Positions 1-52,975 of a DNA stretch of 64,000 nucleotides are shown here, in pieces; the stretch's first letter is position 1, and each line of letters starts with the position of its first letter. The translations under genes were made by a program, and so were the position numbers. A model generated the notes under the pieces. That model was not told the origin of the DNA. It saw only the letters and a program-made list of their open reading frames with translations, and did not search any database. Where the stretch lies: NCBI GenBank assembly GCA_048634245.1, contig JAIWAR010000001.1, forward strand, positions 13,889-77,888, written 5' to 3'. Source of the stretch: Methanosarcinales archaeon. Its GTDB lineage: Bacteria > Omnitrophota > Gorgyraeia > Duberdicusellales > 4484-171.

Positions 1-40
1 CTTTTGCCGATTTTTCAGATAAATTTAGGAATGTAAATTA

Positions 41-61
41 GTCCATAGTCCATAGTCCATG
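41..61 (+). repeat. Tandem heptamer (GTCCATA)x~3 ending in the palindrome GTCCATGGAC, about 30 nt upstream of the gspG start
   Basis: Read directly: gtccata gtccata gtccat g. GTCCATGGAC is self-complementary. Confidence 0.8.
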
Positions 62-2703: not shown

Positions 2704-4212
2704 ATGAAATTTTTATTTAAGTTTAAACACGAACTAAAAATGATTACGGTTTTGGAGATAAGCGGCGATTGGCTGAAAATAGTGCAAGCTCAATTTTCAG
2801 CAAAGGCATGGAAAATTCATAGAGTTATAGTAGAAGATGTGGCTTGTTTTCGGGATGCTCAGGATGAGAAAATTTCCGAACGAATCAGACGCTTACTTAA
2901 GGGTTTAAAGGTAGATCCCAGTACACTTATGGTTGTTATACCTTATCAAGTTGTAGCTATTAGAAATTTAGAATTCCCTTCTACAAATCCTGATGAGATA
3001 AAAAATATGGTAGAGCTGCAGATAGGCAAGCAAACGCCTTTTTCAATAGATGAAATGATTTATGATTACACGATTTTGAATATTGACGCGGAGGGATATA
3101 GCCGGGTGATGCTGGCTGTTGTGCATCAGGATGTCATCAGGCGGTATTTTAAAATATTAAAGGCTGCGAGATTAAAGGTGGAGAGGGTGGCTTTGAGTCC
3201 TGAAGGGTTACTCGCTTGGTATCGTTTTGCTCACAAAGAAAGCGTAAGCGATGAGTCGCATGTTTTAATTGATGTAGATTGCGGCAAAAGTAATTTTGCG
3301 GTCATTTCTAAAGACAAAGTAATATTTTATAGAAACCTTTCTGCTGGAAGCGCTAAGCCTTTAAACGAGATAGAAGGTTGGCAAGAAAAGTTTGTTAACG
3401 CGGTAAAGCATTCTATATATGCTTATCAAAATGAGAGTGAAATGGCTAATAAAGAGATAGACAAAATTGTTATTACCGGGGCAGAGAGTGTTCTTGAGTC
3501 GTTAGATCGAACTGCTTTAGAAGATAAGCTCGGCTTAGATATAGAGATTATATCTCAATTCAAAGATATTTCTGACGATGCGGACTTTTTAGCTCAGGAT
3601 AATAATAATGTTGTAAAAAGCACATCCGTCGCTCCTCTTTTGGGTTTCGCGCTTGCTCCGGCTGAGCAGAAGATCAATCTTATTCCTTTGCAGCTGCGGT
3701 TAGAGAAAGGAATGAGAGAGAGAGGAAAAGATTTGTATATGTGCGGTATATATTTAGCCGTTATCCTAATAACCATTTCAAGCATTTTTTTTGGAAAGGC
3801 CTATACCAAAAAGCAATATCTCACCCGGCTAAAAGAAGAGGCGTCTAAGGTTTCCGAGAAAGTTGATAAGTTAAGCGGCATGCTGGAAGAAATAGCGGGA
3901 GTGAGAGAACGTATTTTTAAAAGAGATTTTGCGCTTAATTTCATATATGAGATACACAAAGCAATTTTTCCTGAAATTTACCTGACATTGATTAATTTTG
4001 ACGGGGGGGATCAAGTAGTTTTACGCGGAGTATCCAGTGTTATGTCCGAAGTCTTCGAATTTATTAATGCCTTAGAAAAATCGGAATGTTTCCAAAATGT
4101 TAAGACAAAGTTTGTAACTACCCGCAAAATAAGGAATAAGGATTTGACAGAATTTGAGATAGTGTGCCCTATAGAGTCAGATTTCAAAAAGGAGAGGGCA
4201 GAGGATAAATGA
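2704..4212 (+). CDS. GspL-like assembly protein (cytoplasmic actin-like PilM domain + TM + periplasmic PilN-like domain)
   Basis: ITVLEISGDWLKIV resembles the PilM/FtsA N-terminal phosphate-1 loop. A single TM helix (IYLAVILITISSIFF) sits near residue 340, followed by a periplasmic domain. Confidence 0.6.
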   Translation: MKFLFKFKHELKMITVLEISGDWLKIVQAQFSAKAWKIHRVIVEDVACFRDAQDEKISERIRRLLKGLKVDPSTLMVVIPYQVVAIRNLEFPSTNPDEIKNMVELQIGKQTPFSIDEMIYDYTILNIDAEGYSRVMLAVVHQDVIRRYFKILKAARLKVERVALSPEGLLAWYRFAHKESVSDESHVLIDVDCGKSNFAVISKDKVIFYRNLSAGSAKPLNEIEGWQEKFVNAVKHSIYAYQNESEMANKEIDKIVITGAESVLESLDRTALEDKLGLDIEIISQFKDISDDADFLAQDNNNVVKSTSVAPLLGFALAPAEQKINLIPLQLRLEKGMRERGKDLYMCGIYLAVILITISSIFFGKAYTKKQYLTRLKEEASKVSEKVDKLSGMLEEIAGVRERIFKRDFALNFIYEIHKAIFPEIYLTLINFDGGDQVVLRGVSSVMSEVFEFINALEKSECFQNVKTKFVTTRKIRNKDLTEFEIVCPIESDFKKERAEDK

Positions 4213-21282: not shown

Positions 21283-22299
21283 ATGAAAGTATTATTAGCT
21301 TGCGAGAGAAGTGCCGGCCATATTTTTCCGGCTTTAGCGCTGGGTGAGAAAATAGAAAAAAAATCTAATATTTATTTTTTTGCTACTTCACCCTTTCTTA
21401 AAAAATACATCGAAAAACAAGGGTTTAATTGTTTTGGCAAGAGCTTAGTTTTCCGAAACTTAATTATTGAGGGTACCTGGCGTTTATTTGAGTCTATATA
21501 CCTTATTCTAAAATTGAGGCCGGAGAAAGTTATTGGATTCGGCGGCCGGGATTCATTTTTTCTGGTTTTATTCAGCTCTTTATTAAGGATAAGAACCGTT
21601 ATCTATGAGCCTAATATAAAGCTGGGAAAGGCAAACAGATTTCTTATGCCTTTTGTGGATGAGGTGTTGCGCGGTTTTGAAGGGGGAAGGGGTAAAAAGG
21701 GCAGAACTATCGGTATTCCTTTACGGAAAAATATAAAGAAAATAGATAAGTGCCAGGCTCGGAAGATTTTGAATTTTAAGGAGGAACCGGTTATCTTTTG
21801 TCTCGGAGGTAGTCAAGGTTCGTCTTTTCTTAATCATGTATTTGTAAGGTTTATCCAGAATTTTAAAGGGAATTGCCAGGTAATCCATCTTACCGGAAAG
21901 GATGAGTATCCGGAGATGCTATCCCGATATGCTGAAATAAAGAACAGGAGCTTTGTCAAAGATTTTTATTACCAGGTAGAGGTTTTATACAGCGCTGCTG
22001 ACTTAGTGGTTTCCCGGGCCGGAGCGGTTACTTTGGGAGAAATTTCATTTTATGGACTGCCGGTTATTTTGCTGCCTCATTTTAAGGCTGGCAGCCATCA
22101 GGTGGAAAATGCTTTGTATTTCGAAAGAAAAGGGGCAGCTAAGGTGTATTCGCAGGATGAGTTTTCTTTTGAAGATTTTAGCCGTTCGCTCAATAGGCTT
22201 ATCGAGGATAAGTGTTTGCGCCAAACTATGAAGGATAATTTAGGGAGGATAAAATTAGGGGTTAGCTATGAGGATTTTAATAATAGCAATTATTTTTAG
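21283..22299 (+). CDS. murG: Undecaprenyldiphospho-muramoylpentapeptide beta-N-acetylglucosaminyltransferase
   Basis: GT28 fold. N-terminal ERSAGHIFPALAL motif. Confidence 0.85.
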   Translation: MKVLLACERSAGHIFPALALGEKIEKKSNIYFFATSPFLKKYIEKQGFNCFGKSLVFRNLIIEGTWRLFESIYLILKLRPEKVIGFGGRDSFFLVLFSSLLRIRTVIYEPNIKLGKANRFLMPFVDEVLRGFEGGRGKKGRTIGIPLRKNIKKIDKCQARKILNFKEEPVIFCLGGSQGSSFLNHVFVRFIQNFKGNCQVIHLTGKDEYPEMLSRYAEIKNRSFVKDFYYQVEVLYSAADLVVSRAGAVTLGEISFYGLPVILLPHFKAGSHQVENALYFERKGAAKVYSQDEFSFEDFSRSLNRLIEDKCLRQTMKDNLGRIKLGVSYEDFNNSNYF

Positions 22300-35225: not shown

Positions 35226-36073
35226 ATTGTAAAATGGCAGAAATAGTAGAGAAAAGAATCTTAGTCGATAGTTTAGGGGTAAGAATTATCCAATTGAAGG
35301 TAAGAGCTCCTTCTATTGCTGAAAAAGCAAAACCAGGCCAGTTTGTGGTTCTGATGACGGGCGAGGAAGGAGAAAGGATACCGTTAACTGTGGTTGAGGG
35401 GGACACAAAGAAGGGTGTTATTACCTTAATTGTTCAAGAAGCGGGGTTAACTACCAAGCTTTTAGGCGCTTTAGAGGTGGGAAAATCCCTTTACGCTTTA
35501 GTCGGCCCCCTAGGACATGCCACTGAGATGAAAAAATACGGAAAAGTAATTTTGGTGGGAGGCGGAGTTGGCATTGCCGAGATTTATCCCGTAGCAAAAG
35601 GGCTGAATAAAGCTGGAAATCACATAACTACTATATTAGGAGCAAGGACAAAAGATCTGTTAATTCTGGAAGAAGAGTTAGGGGCGATATCCGATCAGTT
35701 GCTTATTGCTACCGATGATGGTTCTTATGGGCAAAAAGGCTTTACCACTGATATCCTGAAGAATCTTCTCTATCGACTATCGACTATCGACTATCGACTA
35801 ATTTACGCTGTCGGCCCTATTCCCATGATGAGAAATGTCTCTTTAGTTACTAAAGATTCAGGGATAAAAACTTTGGTATCTTTAAATTCTTTAATGGTTG
35901 ATGCTACCGGTATGTGCGGAAGCTGCCGGGTTACTGTGGGCGGTGAGGTTAAATTTACTTGCGTAGACGGTCCGGAATTTGACGCTTCTTTAGTTGATTG
36001 GGATGAATTAACCAAGAGAAATAAAATATACGCTGAAAAAGAAAAACATATCTGTAATCTTTATAAATTATGA
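35198..36073 (+). CDS. nfnA: NfnA / sulfide dehydrogenase beta-like (PyrK-family FAD/[2Fe-2S] subunit); start probably at MAEIVEK (35233)
   Basis: FNR-like fold with a C-terminal CGSC...C cluster motif. Paired with the downstream GltD-like gene. Contains the heptamer array at 35771..35800. Confidence 0.75.
   Translation: MRGGIDSRVNCKMAEIVEKRILVDSLGVRIIQLKVRAPSIAEKAKPGQFVVLMTGEEGERIPLTVVEGDTKKGVITLIVQEAGLTTKLLGALEVGKSLYALVGPLGHATEMKKYGKVILVGGGVGIAEIYPVAKGLNKAGNHITTILGARTKDLLILEEELGAISDQLLIATDDGSYGQKGFTTDILKNLLYRLSTIDYRLIYAVGPIPMMRNVSLVTKDSGIKTLVSLNSLMVDATGMCGSCRVTVGGEVKFTCVDGPEFDASLVDWDELTKRNKIYAEKEKHICNLYKL
35771..35800 (+). repeat. In-frame heptanucleotide array (TATCGAC)x4 plus TA inside nfnA
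   Basis: 29/30 identical to 110..139. Encodes YRLSTIDYRL in the same codon phase. Confidence 0.9.
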
Positions 36074-48522: not shown

Positions 48523-49448
48523 TGGAAAAGGTATATTCTCGTGATACTTACGGAAAAACGCTTCTGGAATTGGGTAAAAAAGATAAGGACGTAATAGTTT
48601 TAGATGCTGATCTTTCCGGCTCAACGCGTACTTCTTTTTTTCGTCGAGAATTTCCTGAGAGATTTTTTAATTTTGGCGTTGCTGAACAAAATATGATGGC
48701 TACCGCCGCCGGTCTGGCTAGTTGCGGTAAGATTGTTTTTGTTTCTACATTTGCCATGTTCGCTACAGCCAGAGCCTTAGATCAGGTAAGGAATTCAATC
48801 TGTTATAATAATTTTAATGTTAAAATTGTAGCTACACATAGCGGAATAACTGTAGGTGAAGACGGTGCGTCACATCAGGCCTTAGAAGATATTAATTTTG
48901 TCAGGGCAATCCCCAATATAAAGATAATTGTTCCTGCTGATGCTCCTCAGGCCAAAGATGCAGTTATTGCCGCGTATGAAAACCCCGGGCCGTTTTATAT
49001 TCGTTTAGGCCGTTCAAAGATTCCTACGCTTAAGATAAAGGATAAGTTTATTTGTGGAAAGGGACAGGTAATCGAAGAGGGTAAAGAATTAGCAATAATT
49101 GCCTGCGGTATTATGGTCTATGAAGCGCTAAAGGCGCGGGAAATTTTAAAAGAAAAAGGAATATCAGCAACAGTAGTGAATCTTCATACCATAAAGCCGA
49201 TTGACGAGGATTTACTTGTAAATATCGCTGCTTCGCATAAGAAGATTCTTGTTTGTGAAGAGCATCAGGTTACCGGCGGCCTTTTTTCAGCTGTATCTGA
49301 GGTGTTGATTCGCAAGCGTCCGACACAGATTGAGCGTATCGGGATAGAGGATGAATTTGGCCAATCCGGTTCACCTCAGGAGTTGATGGATTTTTATGGC
49401 CTCTCCGCTAATTGTATCGCTGAGAAAGCACAAAAATTTTTGCGGTAG
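48522..49448 (+). CDS. Transketolase, C-terminal subunit
   Basis: Pyrimidine-binding and C-terminal transketolase domains. Contiguous with the N-terminal subunit gene. Confidence 0.9.
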   Translation: MEKVYSRDTYGKTLLELGKKDKDVIVLDADLSGSTRTSFFRREFPERFFNFGVAEQNMMATAAGLASCGKIVFVSTFAMFATARALDQVRNSICYNNFNVKIVATHSGITVGEDGASHQALEDINFVRAIPNIKIIVPADAPQAKDAVIAAYENPGPFYIRLGRSKIPTLKIKDKFICGKGQVIEEGKELAIIACGIMVYEALKAREILKEKGISATVVNLHTIKPIDEDLLVNIAASHKKILVCEEHQVTGGLFSAVSEVLIRKRPTQIERIGIEDEFGQSGSPQELMDFYGLSANCIAEKAQKFLR

Positions 49449-50400
49449 CAAAATCAAGATTCTAAGCCCTGCTAAAATAAACCTCTACCTTAATATAAGA
49501 GGAAAATATCCCGGTGGATTCTGTCGCCTAGAAAGTATCGTTGAGCGTATTTCTTTATGCGATGAGATTTCAATTATAGTAAAATCTCCTTCTGCGATAA
49601 ATATATCCTCAAACGATAAAAACTTAGAAACCAGCGAGAATCTTGCGTTTAAGGCAGCCTATCTTCTAAAACGGCGGCTTAAGATTCCTTTTGGTTTTGA
49701 TATTTTTCTTAAAAAAAATATCCCCATAGGTTCAGGATTGGGAGGCGGTTCTTCCAATGCCGCCAGTACTCTTTTGGGGTTGAATGAATTGCTTAATTTA
49801 GAGTTGGGAAAACAAGAACTCTATTCTTTAGGCGCTAAATTAGGCAGCGATGTTAATTTTTTCCTTTCCCAGAGTCAATTCGCTTTTCTAGAGGGAAGAG
49901 GTGAAAAAATAACTCCTTTTAGGGTAAAGAATAAATTTCATCATTTTATTATCTGGCCGGGAATAGCTATATCTACAAAAAAGGTCTATGCCGCTTTGAA
50001 AGTAAACCTTGCCGGAAGTATCTCGCTCGCCAATAAAAAGAGTAAACTTTGTAACGGGGCAAAATTGACAAAATTTTTTAATAATGATAAGATATTGAGG
50101 TATGCTCTTAAGAAAGGGGATATTTTTTTGATTAAAAAAAATATCTATAATACTTTAGAAAAAAAGGCTTTTGGCTTAAGCGGGAAGTTAAGGAAGGCGA
50201 AAACATTCTTAAAGAGGCAGGGTGTATTTTCAAAAGTAACCGGTTCAGGAAGTGCGCTTTATACGGTCGGCAATGTTATTTCTTTATCTAAGATAAACCC
50301 CGTTAGAGATGGGGTGTCTTTAGACGGCCGTTTATCTCTAAGCGGGGTAAAAAGATTGGTACCCAAAAAGTGGGTTGTATTTGAAGTTATAACTTTTTAA
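49396..50400 (+). CDS. ispE: 4-diphosphocytidyl-2-C-methyl-D-erythritol kinase (start uncertain; possibly an internal non-ATG codon)
   Basis: PAKINLYLNI and GHMP motif PIGSGLGGGSSNAAS. Confidence 0.8.
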   Translation: MASPLIVSLRKHKNFCGSKIKILSPAKINLYLNIRGKYPGGFCRLESIVERISLCDEISIIVKSPSAINISSNDKNLETSENLAFKAAYLLKRRLKIPFGFDIFLKKNIPIGSGLGGGSSNAASTLLGLNELLNLELGKQELYSLGAKLGSDVNFFLSQSQFAFLEGRGEKITPFRVKNKFHHFIIWPGIAISTKKVYAALKVNLAGSISLANKKSKLCNGAKLTKFFNNDKILRYALKKGDIFLIKKNIYNTLEKKAFGLSGKLRKAKTFLKRQGVFSKVTGSGSALYTVGNVISLSKINPVRDGVSLDGRLSLSGVKRLVPKKWVVFEVITF

Positions 50401-50415
50401 CTGGAGGTCAATTCT

Positions 50416-50823
50416 ATGGAGATTACAGAAGTCAGGGTTTCTCTTCGAGAAAGTGAAGGCAAAAGGCTTAAAGCTTATGCGACAATTACCTTTGATAATT
50501 CTTTTGTAGTAAGAAATATCAAGGTTATTGAAGGCAACAACGGTTTATTTGTCGCAATGCCGGCAAGAAAATTAAAACAATTCTGTCCTCGGTGTGGCAA
50601 GAAGGTCGATGTGGGCGGCCAGTATTGTAGCCATTGCGGAGTGCAATTACCTCCCTCTTCTCCTTCCCGGGATACTGAAGACAGCCGGCACGCAACGCAT
50701 CAAGATTTAGCGCATCCTATTAATCAGGAATTTCGTGATTATTTGCAGAGTAAAGTTTTAGATGCTTACCATAACGAAAAATCATCATCGAAAAGTGAGC
50801 CTGCAAATGAAGAGGCCGCATAG
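50416..50823 (+). CDS. spoVG: SpoVG-family protein carrying an inserted C4 zinc ribbon
   Basis: N-terminus MEITEVRV...FVVRNIKVIEGNNGLFVAMP and C-terminal LAHPINQEFRDYLQSKVLDAYHNE are canonical SpoVG. Between them lies CPRCGKK...CSHCG. Confidence 0.8.
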   Translation: MEITEVRVSLRESEGKRLKAYATITFDNSFVVRNIKVIEGNNGLFVAMPARKLKQFCPRCGKKVDVGGQYCSHCGVQLPPSSPSRDTEDSRHATHQDLAHPINQEFRDYLQSKVLDAYHNEKSSSKSEPANEEAA

Positions 50824-50843: not shown

Positions 50844-50918
50844 TGCCCGGTGGTGTAATCGGTAACACATCAGGTTTTGGATCTGAGTTTCCTGGTTCGA
50901 GTCCAGGCCGGGCAACCA
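50844..50918 (+). tRNA. tRNA-Gln (anticodon UUG), CCA encoded
   Basis: Manual fold: acceptor stem TGCCCGG/CCGGGCA, D-arm GTGT/ACAC, anticodon stem TCAGG/TCTGA with loop TTTTGGA, T-arm CCTGG-TTCGAGT-CCAGG, discriminator A, then CCA. Confidence 0.85.
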
Positions 50919-50969
50919 ATTTCTTACTTTTTTTAGTAGTTGATTTTGTGAATAAAAAGCAAAATAATT

Positions 50970-51105
50970 TTCCCGGTGGTGTAATCGGTAACACATCAGG
51001 TTTTGGATCTGAGTTTCCTGGTTGAGCGACCGAGCGACGTGCGATAAAAGAAGGCGAGTTAAGCGAGGGAGTGCCGGGTAATCTCGGCGCCAGGCCCGGC
51101 AACCA
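50970..51105 (+). pseudogene. Second tRNA-Gln(UUG) copy disrupted by a ~68 nt replacement inside the T-loop, with two acceptor-stem mismatches
   Basis: The 5' end through the anticodon arm and the T-stem 5' half is identical to the upstream tRNA. After CCTGGTT the sequence diverges (GAGCGACCGAGCGACG...) before rejoining at CAGGCCCGGCAACCA. Confidence 0.5.
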
Positions 51106-51148
51106 TTTTTTTACCTACACTATAATACCCTCCAATGAAAAAATAGAG

Positions 51149-52975
51149 ATGAGTGTATTAATTAATCAAGATAAACAGCAAATATACAGGCTCTTACATA
51201 AGTACTGGGGGTATAACTCATTTCTTCCTTTACAGGAAGAAACGATTTTATCCATATTACAGGGTGAAGATAGCTTGACCTTGCTGCCTACAGGCGGCGG
51301 TAAATCTTTGTGTTTTCAATTACCGGCTTTATTAAAGAAAGGCATGGCTGTGGTTGTTTCTCCTTTGATTTCTCTGATGAAGGATCAGGTAGATAATCTT
51401 AAAAGTATGGGAGTAGCTTCGGTCTATTTAAATTCCAGTTTATCTTACGAGCAGCAAGCATTAGCTATGGAACAAATTTATCAAGGGAAGATAAAGCTTT
51501 TATATATTTCTCCTGAACGGTTACAAAATGAGCTGACTATAGAATTACTGGAATCTACCGCGCTTTCTTTTTTTGTAATTGATGAAGCTCATTGCGTAAG
51601 CCATTGGGGGCATGATTTCAGAGCGGACTATCGAAACCTTAAGACGATCAAAGAAAAATTTAACTCTGTAAGCGTCCACGCTTTTACTGCTACTGCAGTT
51701 CGGGAAGTGCAGGTTGATATTATAGAGCAATTAAAGTTTATCAATCCCAAAATTCATATTGGCCGGGTGGACCGTCCTAATTTAGTTTATAGAGTATTAC
51801 CGCGTAAGCAAATATTAAAACAGATAATCGATGTTTTAAATAAACACCGTGATGAAGCCGGTATTATATATTGTTTGCGGCGCAAAGATGTAGATAGCAT
51901 TTCAGGTGATTTAAAAAATCTTGGGATTAAAAATGTCAGCTATCATGCCGGCATGTCAGATAAAGAACGCCATATGGCTCAGGAGAAATTTGCCCGTGAA
52001 GAGATAAATATAATTGTAGCTACAATAGCCTTTGGTATGGGGATTGACCGTTCTAATATTCGTTTTATTATTCATACCGGTATGCCCAAGAGCATTGAGC
52101 ACTATCAACAGGAGACAGGACGGGCCGGAAGGGATGGCCTTTTGGCTTCTTGTTATTTGTTTTACGGCGGAGGGGATTATCGATTATGGAGTTTTTTTGC
52201 TGAAGAATCTTCTGAGCGGAAAGTGTTGATAGAAAAGTTACGTTCTATGTATAATTTTTGCACTCAGCCCCAATGCCGGCACAGAGTATTGGTGAATTAT
52301 TTTAATCAGAGTTATAATAAACATTCTTGTTGTGCGTGTGATTATTGCTTAAATGAGCTTGAGATGGTTGATAACGCGCTTGTTATAGGACAGAAAGTAT
52401 TATCTTGTGTGACTGATGTAAGATATGAGCATTATGGTTTTGGCGCAGGTTATGTGACAGATGTATTAAAAGGCAAACTTACTGAGAAGATAAAATATGC
52501 AGGGCATCATAATCTATCAGTTTTCGGCACAATGCAAGAAGAGTCAGAACCTTTTATCCGGTATATGATTGAACAATTAACCGGCCAGGGCTTTTTATCT
52601 AAAGAAAGGGAGTTTTCCACGCTCCTGGTAACTGATACAGGAAAACAATTGTTAAACGGGGAGCTGCTTCCGATGCTGGCTAAGCCTTTGCTGAGAACTA
52701 AGAAAAAAGAGACTACAAAAAAGAGTAGGGAAAAACGGGAGATAGAATGGAGCGGGGTAGATCAGGAGTTATTCCAAATATTACGCGAAAAAAGAACAGA
52801 ACTTGCCAAAAAAAAAGGTGTTCCGGCATATATTATATTCGGTGATAAACCACTAAGAGATATGGCGGCAAAAAAGCCTTTAACCAAAGAAGCTTTTTCT
52901 GGTATTTACGGTGTAGGCGAGAATAAATTAAAATCTTACGCCGATATATTTATTAAAATCATTAGAGATTATTAG
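51149..52975 (+). CDS. recQ: ATP-dependent DNA helicase RecQ (the ORF track start at 51071 overlaps the tRNA relic; M at 51149 is preferred)
   Basis: Motif I LPTGGGKSLCFQLPAL, DEAH box (VIDEAHCVSHWGHDFR), RecQ zinc-binding cysteines, and a C-terminal HRDC domain. Confidence 0.85.
   Translation: MSVLINQDKQQIYRLLHKYWGYNSFLPLQEETILSILQGEDSLTLLPTGGGKSLCFQLPALLKKGMAVVVSPLISLMKDQVDNLKSMGVASVYLNSSLSYEQQALAMEQIYQGKIKLLYISPERLQNELTIELLESTALSFFVIDEAHCVSHWGHDFRADYRNLKTIKEKFNSVSVHAFTATAVREVQVDIIEQLKFINPKIHIGRVDRPNLVYRVLPRKQILKQIIDVLNKHRDEAGIIYCLRRKDVDSISGDLKNLGIKNVSYHAGMSDKERHMAQEKFAREEINIIVATIAFGMGIDRSNIRFIIHTGMPKSIEHYQQETGRAGRDGLLASCYLFYGGGDYRLWSFFAEESSERKVLIEKLRSMYNFCTQPQCRHRVLVNYFNQSYNKHSCCACDYCLNELEMVDNALVIGQKVLSCVTDVRYEHYGFGAGYVTDVLKGKLTEKIKYAGHHNLSVFGTMQEESEPFIRYMIEQLTGQGFLSKEREFSTLLVTDTGKQLLNGELLPMLAKPLLRTKKKETTKKSREKREIEWSGVDQELFQILREKRTELAKKKGVPAYIIFGDKPLRDMAAKKPLTKEAFSGIYGVGENKLKSYADIFIKIIRDY

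What the first reader, a model, noticed from the sequence alone, without database searches (positions are those of the whole stretch)
50970..51105. Tandem tRNA-Gln genes with the downstream copy disrupted inside the T-loop
The second copy matches the intact tRNA-Gln(UUG) base-for-base from the D-arm through the 5' half of the T-stem. It then replaces the T-loop CGAGTC with a ~68 nt segment (GAGCGACCGAGCGACGTGCGATAAAAGAAGGCGAGTTAAGCGAGGGAGTGCCGGGTAATCTCGGCGC) that contains a GAGCGAC direct repeat. It resumes at CAGG plus an acceptor 3' strand and ACCA. The acceptor stem of this copy has two mismatches (G2 to T, G68 to C). Within the replacement, TGCCGGG pairs perfectly with the 3' CCCGGCA, giving an alternative mini-helix followed by ACCATTTTTTT. 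Bacterial tRNA introns are known only in anticodon loops, so this is either a tRNA pseudogene scarred by an integration or excision event, a novel T-loop intervening sequence, or a tRNA-derived structured RNA/terminator.
Basis: seen in the sequence. Interest (0 to 1): 0.6.

Follow-up and report, generated by a model that had tools for sequence, protein, structure and literature searches.

The report
Conserved tRNA-Gln-derived structured RNA gene
Next to a normal glutamine tRNA gene, this uncultivated Omnitrophota bacterium keeps a second copy whose T-loop is replaced by a 66-nt two-hairpin insert; the insert is conserved with compensating base changes in distant relatives, so it is probably an undescribed tRNA-derived RNA, not a tRNA, an intron or a plain scar.

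Summary
Window 50844-50918 is an intact tRNA-Gln(UUG). Window 50970-51105 repeats its first 52-55 nt exactly, replaces T-loop CGAGU with 66 nt (51024-51089), then resumes with the T-stem and acceptor 3' strands, ACCA and T7.

The copy is not private to this genome. It occurs at the spoVG-tRNA-Gln-glmU locus in at least five Omnitrophota lineages from independent assemblies. A sixth lineage has the insert without a recognisable tRNA body.

- **Conservation.** The insert's ends are 42/44 identical between lineages whose four-fold sites are only 54% identical. Its middle 24 nt drifts at about the neutral rate and is deleted in one copy.
- **Structure.** The ends fold only on the tRNA-sense strand (z -2.6 against +0.4). 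They form a three-way junction on the T-stem: helix P1 with two invariant tandem G·A pairs, and hairpin P2. Three of 12 pairs show double compensatory changes and none is broken.
- **Not a tRNA or intron.** Acceptor stems are decayed in most lineages. No excision could rebuild a T-loop.
- **Body.** The tRNA-derived part tracks the neighbouring functional gene, which indicates gene conversion.
- **Context.** All four insert-bearing lineages with readable context carry accessory genes here (recQ, Fic, GIY-YIG, zeta toxin). All five lineages without it have none.
- **Databases.** No Rfam family matches, no other copies were found, and no integrase lies nearby.

The function is unknown.

The parts
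50844..50918 (+). Intact tRNA-Gln(UUG) with encoded CCA. It is the functional paralogue and the donor that keeps the body of the second copy identical.
   Evidence: ARAGORN. Rfam RF00005 62.2 bits. Orthologous single tRNA-Gln at the same spoVG-glmU position in lineages C, D, G, H and J.
50919..50969 (+). Spacer with a promoter-like element, TTGATT (50940-50945), 17 nt, AATAAT (50963-50968). A start site would fall at or just inside the 5' end of the second copy.
   Evidence: Consensus scan. The count in the region is not above shuffles. However, the block TTGATTT...AAAGCAAAACAA recurs upstream of the downstream tRNA-type unit in lineages B, E, F and K.
50970..51023 (+). tRNA-derived body of tRNA-Gln*: acceptor 5' strand (G2 to U), D-arm, anticodon arm (UUG), variable loop, T-stem 5' strand and U54 U55.
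   Evidence: 52/52 identity to copy 1. In every lineage it carries the same lineage-specific substitutions as the resident intact tRNA: position 9, anticodon-stem pair 31-39 and position 44. This is concerted evolution.
51024..51089 (+). 66-nt module that replaces T-loop bases 56-60.
   Evidence: Sequence. Homologous copies occur in lineages B, Ea, Eb, F, I and K. Covariance model R1 scores them 39-93 bits. No Rfam family matches.
51026..51035 (+). P1 5' strand, GCGACCGAGC.
   Evidence: RNAalifold and pair counts. It pairs with 51063-51072 as G·U, C-G, [G·A, A·G], C-G, C-G, [G·A, A·G], G-C, C-G.
51036..51062 (+). Variable tip of P1, A-rich.
   Evidence: Identity is about neutral: 18/24 A-B, 14/24 A-Ea, 16/23 A-F. 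It is deleted in copy Eb, which keeps P1 closed by a GAA triloop.
51063..51072 (+). P1 3' strand, GCGAGGGAGU.
   Evidence: Double changes are C58-G102 to U-A in Eb, and C62-G98 to U-A in B by way of U·G in Ea.
51073..51088 (+). P2 hairpin, GCCGGG-UAAU-CUCGGC.
   Evidence: The fifth pair is G·U in A, A-U in B, Eb and I, and G-C in Ea and F. The other pairs are invariant.
51017..51094 (+). Extended T-arm: the T-stem (51017-51022 with 51089-51094) closes a three-way junction with P1 and P2.
   Evidence: MFE -29.6 kcal/mol, 53% of the ensemble, z -2.61. The reverse strand gives z +0.44. The same fold is the single-sequence MFE in A, A2, B and Ea.
51095..51112 (+). Acceptor 3' strand CCCGGCA (C68 private to this strain), discriminator A, CCA, then T7.
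   Evidence: Sequence. L022 has CCGGGCA. This segment is degenerate or missing in Ea and F and lacks CCA in B.
51149..52975 (+). recQ, an accessory insertion at this locus between the tRNA array and glmU (53054).
   Evidence: Pfam DEAD, Helicase_C, RecQ_Zn_bind, RQC and HRDC. It is absent from this position in lineages C, D, F, G, H and J. In 17 relatives recQ lies elsewhere without a tRNA.

Best explanation
tRNA-Gln* is a transcribed paralogue of tRNA-Gln that has become a different, tRNA-derived non-coding RNA.

**Origin.** A tandem duplicate of the promoter-plus-tRNA-Gln unit had its T-loop replaced by a module. The module folds, on the sense strand, into a three-way junction on the T-stem. 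P1 is a 10-position helix with two tandem G·A/A·G pairs and a dispensable tip. P2 is a 6-bp G+C-rich hairpin.

**What is selected.** Selection acts on this module. The tRNA-like body (positions 3-55) stays identical to the neighbouring functional gene by gene conversion. The acceptor stem, at or beyond the edge of the conversion tract, decays. The RNA therefore cannot be aminoacylated or spliced into a tRNA.

**Effect on the locus.** The duplicated 52-55-nt identical blocks and their shared promoter spacer make the locus a substrate for homologous recombination. That would explain why the order of intact and disrupted copies varies, and why accessory genes (recQ, Fic, GIY-YIG, zeta toxin) accumulate right at its borders.

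**Shown.** Presence, conservation, strand-specific fold, covariation, concerted evolution and the association with accessory genes.

**Inferred.** That it is transcribed, that the module binds a partner (most likely a protein that recognises the tandem G·A helix), and that recombination between the repeats drives cargo turnover.
For: **Same element in independent assemblies.**
- L022 and L023 are strains of lineage A.
- L026/L027 are lineage B.
- L034 holds two copies, Ea and Eb.
- L039/L040 are lineage F.
- L043/L044 are lineage I.
- L048 is lineage K.

**Constraint.** Four-fold-site identity to the window is 0.68 (B), 0.63 (E), 0.54 (F) and 0.51 (I). The module ends are 41-42/44 identical (binomial p from 7e-5 to 1e-10). 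The middle is not distinguishable from neutral.

**Structure.**
- RNAalifold gives the cloverleaf body plus T-stem, P1 and P2.
- All 12 Watson-Crick or G·U pairs are intact in all 7 distinct sequences.
- Three pairs have changes on both sides. Only 7 of 500 shuffles do as well, and slid registers pair 27-57% of cells.
- The four G·A positions are never converted to Watson-Crick pairs.
- All intermediates are G·U on the + strand, which would be C·A on the - strand.
- The + strand gives z -2.61 and the - strand +0.44.
- Copy Eb, not used to build the model, scores 39 bits. Its 32-nt deletion trims P1 to a hairpin while keeping a U-A compensated pair.

**Other points.**
- A promoter-like element is conserved in position across lineages, and a T-run follows.
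- Lineage I has the module behind a non-tRNA hairpin, so the module is the conserved unit.
- All four module lineages with known context (A, B, E, F) have accessory genes at the locus. All five without the module (C, D, G, H, J) have none.
Against: - No expression data exist. The promoter match is weak (9/12) and not above the shuffle count.
- Only 7 distinct sequences and 3 covarying pairs are available. The shuffle control is not a probability for related sequences.
- Template-switch correction of quasi-palindromes could create some compensating changes without RNA-level selection.
- The upstream-type copies (Ea, F) lack a T-run and an acceptor 3' strand, so the transcript ends are not uniform.
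- Strain L046 of lineage K has lost the module, and its tRNA fragment is riddled with palindromic insertions. The element is therefore dispensable at least there.
- No partner or function can be named.
- The perfect association with accessory genes fits a DNA-level recombination role equally well.
Confidence: 0.5

Rival explanations
1. It is a DNA-level recombination or attachment module. On this view tRNA-Gln* is the docking site (attP-like, or a homology arm plus recombinase-binding site) of small integrase-less or trans-mobilised cassettes that enter at tRNA-Gln. The conserved ends of the insert would be protein-binding or folded single-strand DNA sites, and the accessory genes would be cargo.
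For: - Module and accessory genes co-occur perfectly: 4 of 4 lineages with the module against 0 of 5 without.
- Copies flank cassettes in L034: zeta toxin cassette, tRNA*a, tRNA, tRNA*b, GIY-YIG, Fic. A tRNA-Gln 5' fragment plays the same flanking role in L046.
- Cargo differs immediately after the shared T-run.
- Module-bearing lineages lie in two clades, interleaved with module-less ones.
- The element has conserved ends and a variable, deletable middle, as in att and attC-type sites.
- The left junction GGTTGAGC fits the integron core GTTRRRY.
Against: - No integrase, transposase or IntI lies within about 5-10 kb in any locus (Pfam lists).
- No distal tRNA 3'-fragment repeat occurs after recQ.
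- The fold is strongly strand-specific with G·U pairs, and the G·A mismatches are kept. This is unexpected for a duplex protein site.
- The right junction lacks the TT-plus-T-loop remainder that an integron-type G|TT insertion would leave.
- No copy occurs in IMG/VR viral contigs. The pattern hits there lie inside phage coding genes.
Confidence: 0.25
2. It is a neutral relic. On this view tRNA-Gln* is simply a decaying tandem duplicate whose T-loop captured filler DNA at a break. The break could have been made by a T-loop-cutting GIY-YIG endonuclease, as phage SegB does. The element would have no function of its own.
For: - Acceptor stems are decayed.
- The body is kept only by gene conversion.
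- Strain L046 lost the module and accumulated palindromic insertions.
- GIY-YIG genes sit next to the array in lineages E, F and K.
- SegB cleaves tRNA genes at RAWTSGAAC, the T-loop motif, and drives tandem amplification of tRNA segments (PMC13096335).
Against: - The module ends are 42/44 identical where four-fold sites are 54% identical, while the middle drifts. This differential rules out both neutrality and recent transfer of the whole unit.
- Compensated pairs and invariant tandem G·A pairs are present.
- A G+C-rich (61%) segment is preserved in a 39% G+C genome.
- The local GIY-YIG proteins are 82-92 aa, domain-only, and do not resemble SegB-type enzymes.
- Lineages A and B have no GIY-YIG gene at the locus.
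Confidence: 0.12
3. It is a tRNA gene with a T-loop intron, or a small mobile insertion (MITE or REP-type) sitting in a tRNA pseudogene.
For: - The insert has clean junctions in the T-loop in all lineages.
- Small palindromic insertions do occur in tRNA-Gln fragments of relatives (L046).
- Lineage I shows the module in another sequence context.
Against: **Against an intron.**
- No excision rebuilds a T-loop. UU+CGGCG would put G at the invariant A58.
- Acceptor stems are broken in most lineages.
- No group I intron hit was found.
- The helix that would bring the junctions together (CCGAG/CUCGG) is mismatched in Ea and F, whereas P2 covaries.

**Against a mobile repeat.**
- Each genome segment has one copy. 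None lies elsewhere in the 64-kb window or in 293 kb of related DNA.
- There are no terminal inverted repeats.
- JGI metagenome scans found only the same locus.
Confidence: 0.05

Closest known systems
tRNA gene fragments and pseudo-tRNAs at genomic-island borders (tRNA-targeting integrases; see PMC9897764 on tRNA gene fragments in prokaryotes)
   Same: It is a partial tRNA copy beside an intact tRNA. It lies at a locus where accessory genes are inserted, and tRNA finders do not call it.
   Different: Island scars are 3' fragments that repeat the integrase crossover segment, with an integrase next to the tRNA. Here the whole 5' body is duplicated and the T-loop is replaced by a conserved structured module. 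No integrase and no distal 3' repeat is present.
tRNA-like domains in other non-coding RNAs (tmRNA, bacterial Y-RNA-like YrlA, mascRNA). This comparison rests on my own knowledge.
   Same: It is an RNA built on part of a tRNA fold, with an added non-tRNA domain and no decoding role.
   Different: Those RNAs keep the acceptor/T-arm elbow and replace the anticodon side. This one keeps the D and anticodon arms and destroys the T-loop, and its acceptor stem is not conserved. It has no sequence or covariance-model similarity to any Rfam family.
Archaeal non-canonical tRNA introns (bulge-helix-bulge, including T-loop positions) and bacterial group I tRNA introns
   Same: It is an intervening sequence inside a tRNA gene at a loop.
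   Different: No functional tRNA can be regenerated, no group I core is present, bacteria lack the splicing endonuclease, and an intact paralogue is present.
SegB-type GIY-YIG homing endonucleases in phage tRNA clusters (PMC13096335)
   Same: GIY-YIG genes lie beside tRNA genes, a tRNA unit is tandemly duplicated, and the T-loop is the affected site.
   Different: The local GIY-YIG proteins are 82-92 aa, domain-only and not SegB-like. They are absent in the window's lineage. This is an analogy only.
Integron attC sites
   Same: Both have conserved ends, a variable and deletable central part, a folded single strand with unpaired positions, and an adjoining array of small accessory genes. The left junction reads GTTGAGC (GTTRRRY).
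   Different: There is no IntI and no inverse core at the other end. The right junction does not fit G|TT exchange. The sequence, and not only the structure, is conserved. The fold includes G·U pairs on the transcribed strand.

Membership tests
tRNA (Rfam RF00005) | Full cloverleaf scoring above the gathering threshold, with a 7-nt T-loop (T54, Psi55, C56, A58) | tested here: not met
   It scores 20.3 bits against the 29-bit threshold, over model positions 10-42 only. ARAGORN does not call it. T-loop bases 56-60 are replaced by 66 nt.
tRNA (Rfam RF00005) | A paired 7-bp acceptor stem conserved among orthologues | tested here: not met
   Two mismatches in the window, one in L022, two in Eb and at least three in F. 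The 3' strand is absent in Ea. Only B is intact.
Intron-containing tRNA gene (group I or bulge-helix-bulge) | Excision regenerates a canonical tRNA, with a group I core or a bulge-helix-bulge motif at the junctions | tested here: not met
   No Rfam intron hit at E up to 10. By inspection no junction choice gives C56/A58. The junction-spanning helix is mismatched in Ea and F. No dedicated bulge-helix-bulge scanner was run.
Genomic-island att scar at a tRNA gene | A direct repeat of the tRNA 3' segment at the far end of the island | tested here: not met
   With up to 3 mismatches, the 17-nt 3' segment matches only the two tandem copies and one 3-mismatch site on the opposite strand 29 kb away (22007-22023), not downstream of recQ, where the repeat would lie.
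Genomic-island att scar at a tRNA gene | An integrase or recombinase gene adjacent to the tRNA | tested here: not met
   The neighbours are ispE, spoVG, recQ, glmU, prs, L25 and pth in the window. Relatives add Fic, GIY-YIG and zeta toxin.
Dispersed repeat, MITE or REP element | Multiple copies per genome at unrelated sites | tested here: inconclusive
   One copy lies in the 64-kb window. None lies elsewhere in 293 kb of related loci by nhmmer or the covariance model. Metagenome scans returned only this locus. No complete genome could be searched.
Intrinsic terminator | A G+C-rich hairpin immediately followed by a U-run, conserved | tested here: not met
The scan does not call one at 51070-51112. 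P2 lies 17 nt from the T-run.
Any described RNA family (Rfam 15) | A covariance-model match to the insert | tested here: not met
   No match to the module at E up to 10 in the window, or up to 1 in four related loci.
Conserved structured non-coding RNA (generic criteria) | Purifying selection above the neutral rate, a strand-specific stable fold, and compensatory changes | tested here: met
   (42/44 against 0.54 neutral identity). (z -2.61 against +0.44). (3 double-change pairs, no broken pair in 7 sequences).
Conserved structured non-coding RNA (generic criteria) | Evidence of transcription | not testable with these tools
   Only a promoter-like match and a T-run are available. No expression data could be consulted.
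Integron attC site | R''/R' core sites (RYYYAAC...GTTRRRY) at both ends, and an IntI integrase in the array | tested here: not met
   GTTGAGC occurs at the left junction only. A second GTTAAGC in the window is GCTAAGC or GCCAAGC in relatives. No integrase was found. No attC-specific model was run.

The most novel reading that the evidence does not exclude
tRNA-Gln* could be the conserved core of an undescribed class of small, integrase-less gene cassettes in Omnitrophota. The cassettes would dock at tRNA-Gln through the 55-nt tRNA-identical arm. The three-way-junction RNA, or the same strand as folded DNA, would be the element's own functional part: for example a partner for a trans-acting recombinase or nuclease, or an RNA that protects or regulates the cargo. 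This would account for the selection on the module, for its perfect association with swapped accessory genes, and for its patchy phylogenetic distribution.
Probability: 0.15. Interest if true: 0.8.

Novelty: new variant of a known kind. Interest (0 to 1): 0.55.

Why it matters
- If it is transcribed, this is a new bacterial RNA family derived from a tRNA by replacing the T-loop with a structured domain. That architecture is the opposite of tmRNA or Y-RNA-like tRNA mimics. It occurs in a phylum with almost no experimental RNA biology.
- It gives a clear natural example of gene conversion keeping a non-functional tRNA body identical to its neighbour while a foreign domain is selected.
- It marks a recombination hotspot where recQ, Fic, GIY-YIG and toxin genes are exchanged without any visible integrase.
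- In practice, such copies break assemblies and mislead gene callers. Here recQ is called from a GTG inside the RNA.

Tried and rejected
- **recQ synteny.** The 17 relatives have no tRNA and a different context, so they were useless for the locus. They did show that recQ is an insertion here.
- **First metagenome pattern spanning the junction.** No hits.
- **Viral-contig scans with four patterns.** There were either no hits or hits that the covariance model and inspection place inside phage coding genes such as capsid-like ORFs. They are chance matches.
- **Whole-element fold.** z is about -0.6, which is uninformative. Only the extended T-arm alone is significant.
Not conserved.
- **Module derived from tRNA sequence, or lineage I upstream derived from tRNA.** Local alignments are not above shuffles.
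- **Long-range pairing of GCGACCGAG with CUCGGCGC** (intron-like closing helix or attenuator alternative). Mismatched in Ea and F, while P2 covaries.
- **Distal extension of P1.** Not conserved.
- **Shared 10-mer TAAGCGAGGA** between the module and the tRNA-to-GIY-YIG spacer of lineage F (p about 0.01). Too weak to interpret.
- **Integron core-site resemblance at the left junction.** The right junction and the missing integrase do not fit.
- **Known small ribozymes and SRP Alu-like similarity.** Hammerhead, twister and pistol resemblances were considered by eye. Their Rfam models gave no hit.
- **SegB analogy.** The local GIY-YIG proteins are small and domain-only, occur in only 27 phage records, and have no tRNA neighbour in the one checked.
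- **MAFFT alignment A3.** It misaligned the short copy Eb and was not used.
Full report
**1. What is in the window**

ARAGORN finds a single tRNA in the 64 kb, tRNA-Gln(UUG) at 50844-50918. Rfam scores it 62 bits.

Fifty-one bases downstream, 50970-51105 repeats it:
- 50972-51023 is 52/52 identical to 50846-50897.
- After CCTGG-TT the T-loop bases CGAGT are replaced by 66 nt (51024-51089).
- The sequence then resumes with CCAGG, the acceptor 3' strand, ACCA and T7.
- Rfam sees only the D and anticodon arms (20 bits, below threshold), and ARAGORN ignores the copy.

**2. Where it sits**

The gene order is transketolase, ispE, spoVG, tRNA-Gln, tRNA-Gln*, recQ, glmU, prs, L25, pth. The organism belongs to Candidatus Omnitrophota.

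In 17 relatives recQ has other neighbours and no tRNA. recQ is therefore an insertion into the widespread spoVG-tRNA-Gln-glmU arrangement.

**3. Relatives**

Syntenic loci were collected through SpoVG homologues, exact-protein look-ups and one metagenome pattern scan.

| Lineage | Loci | Arrangement |
|---|---|---|
| A | window, L022, L023, L024 | spoVG, tRNA, tRNA*, recQ, glmU. L022 is 98.35% identical to the window. |
| B | L026/27/41/42 | tRNA, tRNA*, Fic, recQ, then sensor genes. Acceptor stem intact, no CCA. |
| E | L034 | zeta toxin cassette, tRNA*a (3' strand lost), 230 nt, tRNA, tRNA*b (insert shortened to 34 nt), GIY-YIG, Fic |
| F | L039/40 | spoVG, tRNA*, tRNA, GIY-YIG, glmU |
| I | L043/44 | The insert follows a 7-bp non-tRNA hairpin. 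The contig ends inside the insert. |
| K | L046-L049 | L048 has tRNA* (contig end). L046 has a tRNA 5' fragment broken by palindromes, then GIY-YIG, tRNA, GIY-YIG, glmU. |
| C, D, G, H, J | L025, L028-33, L035-38, L045 | plain spoVG, tRNA-Gln, glmU |

On a four-protein neighbour-joining tree, the module-bearing lineages fall in two clades, interleaved with module-less ones.

**4. It is not a tRNA and not an intron**

- The acceptor stem is intact only in B. It has one or two mismatches in A, two in Eb and at least three in F, and the 3' strand is missing in Ea.
- No choice of excision points restores a 7-nt T-loop with C56 and A58.
- An intact paralogue is adjacent in every lineage where the flanking sequence could be read.
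- No intron model matches.

**5. The tRNA body is kept by gene conversion**

Three lineage-specific substitutions appear in both the intact and the disrupted copy of the same genome. They are position 9 (G or A), the anticodon-stem pair 31-39 (G·U or C-G) and position 44. Meanwhile the insert's middle has diverged at the neutral rate, so the copies are old. Identity of the body therefore says nothing about its function. Decay at positions 1-2 and in the 16-nt 3' part fits the edges of conversion tracts.

**6. The insert is constrained**

- Four-fold degenerate sites in tktN, tktC, ispE and spoVG are 68% (B), 63% (E), 54% (F) and 51% (I) identical to the window.
- The left 13 nt and right 31 nt of the insert are 41/44 identical with B, 42/44 with Ea, 42/44 with F and 37/43 with I (binomial p from 7e-5 to 1e-10).
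- The middle 24 nt is 18/24, 14/24, 16/23 and 12/20 identical, which is not different from neutral.

This contrast within 67 nt excludes both neutral decay and recent horizontal spread of the whole unit. The segment is 61% G+C in a 39% G+C genome.

**7. The constrained parts form a structure on the sense strand**

RNAalifold gives acceptor, D and anticodon arms, then a T-stem of 5 bp plus U·G that closes a three-way junction.
- **P1** pairs 51026-35 with 51063-72 as G·U, C-G, G·A, A·G, C-G, C-G, G·A, A·G, G-C, C-G.
- **P2** is GCCGGG-UAAU-CUCGGC.

Pair counts and controls:
- In 7 distinct sequences all 12 standard pairs are intact in every sequence.
- C58-G102 becomes U-A in Eb.
- C62-G98 becomes U·G in Ea and U-A in B.
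- P2 pair 5 is G·U, A-U or G-C.
- The four G·A positions are never standard pairs.
- Only 7 of 500 shuffles reach the observed covariation, and slid registers pair 27-57% of cells.

Further support:
- The 32-nt deletion in Eb trims P1 to a hairpin with a GAA triloop.
- The model built without Eb finds it at 39 bits.
- The 78-nt extended T-arm folds into exactly this shape as its MFE (-29.6 kcal/mol, 53% of the ensemble, z -2.61). The reverse strand gives z +0.44.
- Single-sequence MFEs recover the junction in A, A2, B and Ea.
- All wobble intermediates are G·U on the tRNA-sense strand.

Strand specificity and the retained G·A pairs argue for an RNA, or at least a folded + strand, and against a duplex protein site or palindrome homogenisation.

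**8. Expression signals**

A TTGATT-17-AATAAT match ends 1 nt before the copy. The same block precedes the downstream tRNA-type unit in B, E, F and K. A, B and Eb end in a T-run, while Ea and F run on into the intact tRNA. No expression data could be consulted.

**9. It is not a known family or a dispersed repeat**

- Rfam has nothing for the insert.
- nhmmer and the covariance model find it only at this locus in 293 kb.
- The window has no other tRNA-Gln fragment apart from one weak 3-mismatch match on the opposite strand 29 kb away.
- JGI metagenomes yielded only lineage F.
- IMG/VR hits are chance matches inside phage genes.

**10. Link with accessory genes**

All four module lineages with readable context carry extra genes at the borders of the array: recQ; Fic with recQ; zeta toxin, GIY-YIG and Fic; and GIY-YIG. 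All five module-less lineages carry none. Homology between lineages stops a few bases after the T-run. No integrase is present (and the Pfam lists).

Repeated 52-55-nt blocks with a shared spacer are an obvious substrate for unequal crossing-over and for homology-driven gain and loss. This would also explain the variable order of the copies and the many contigs that end here.

A literature parallel is phage SegB, a GIY-YIG nuclease that cuts tRNA genes at the T-loop motif and drives tandem amplification (PMC13096335). The local GIY-YIG proteins are domain-only and unrelated in architecture, so this remains an analogy.

**11. Verdict**

The best-supported reading (about 0.5) is a tRNA-Gln-derived non-coding RNA gene. 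Its selected part is a three-way-junction module in place of the T-loop, and it is embedded in a recombination-prone tandem array.

The rivals are:
- a DNA-level docking site for cassettes, about 0.25;
- a neutral relic, about 0.12;
- an intron or mobile repeat, about 0.05.

The function is not known. I infer a protein-binding role for the G·A helix. The element is new with respect to Rfam and to the known tRNA-like RNAs, but it belongs to the broad, known kind of tRNA-derived structured RNAs.

Noticed in passing
window 39-60, 110-139 and 35770-35800: Near-perfect to perfect (95-100% matches) heptamer tandem arrays: TAGTCCA x3, and TATCGAC/CTATCGA x4.3-4.4. The same unit recurs 35.6 kb apart. 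Similar TAGT-rich heptamers occur in the spoVG-tRNA spacers of L026 and L034.
   Followed up: no
L046 1131-1250; L028 about 4083-4115: Small palindromes, some perfect and some imperfect, sharing ...GAACC..AAAG..GGTTC... are inserted into a tRNA-Gln 5' fragment (D-loop and anticodon-loop positions) or lie just after the tRNA. They may form a hairpin (REP- or MITE-like) repeat family of these genomes.
   Followed up: partly
window 51071-52975: ORF listing and a public gene call start recQ at GTG 51071, inside the tRNA-like RNA (634 aa). ATG 51149 (608 aa) matches the relatives.
   Followed up: yes
window 50416-50823 and relatives: SpoVG of this Omnitrophota group carries a zinc-ribbon (residues about 52-77) inserted in the SpoVG domain.
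   Followed up: no
L024 and L027 (GCA_023131675.1); L023 and L026 (ERZ23498622): One MAG and one sample each hold two versions of the locus, lineages A and B. The SpoVG proteins of the two versions are 91% identical. The bin therefore mixes two populations.
   Followed up: no
L024, L043, L044, L047, L048, L049: Contigs end inside the tRNA/tRNA* repeat or the module, so the array is a systematic assembly breakpoint.
   Followed up: no
L034 4011-4783; L041 1394-2170; L046 1273-1868: Small accessory genes sit at the array borders: a zeta-toxin-like kinase with a 46-aa partner ORF, Fic with a winged-helix domain, and two domain-only GIY-YIG nucleases flanking the intact tRNA.
   Followed up: partly
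window 49396-50400: The ispE ORF overlaps the end of the transketolase C-terminal-subunit gene by about 50 nt. It is 18 aa longer at the N-terminus than in most relatives (334 against 316 aa).
   Followed up: no
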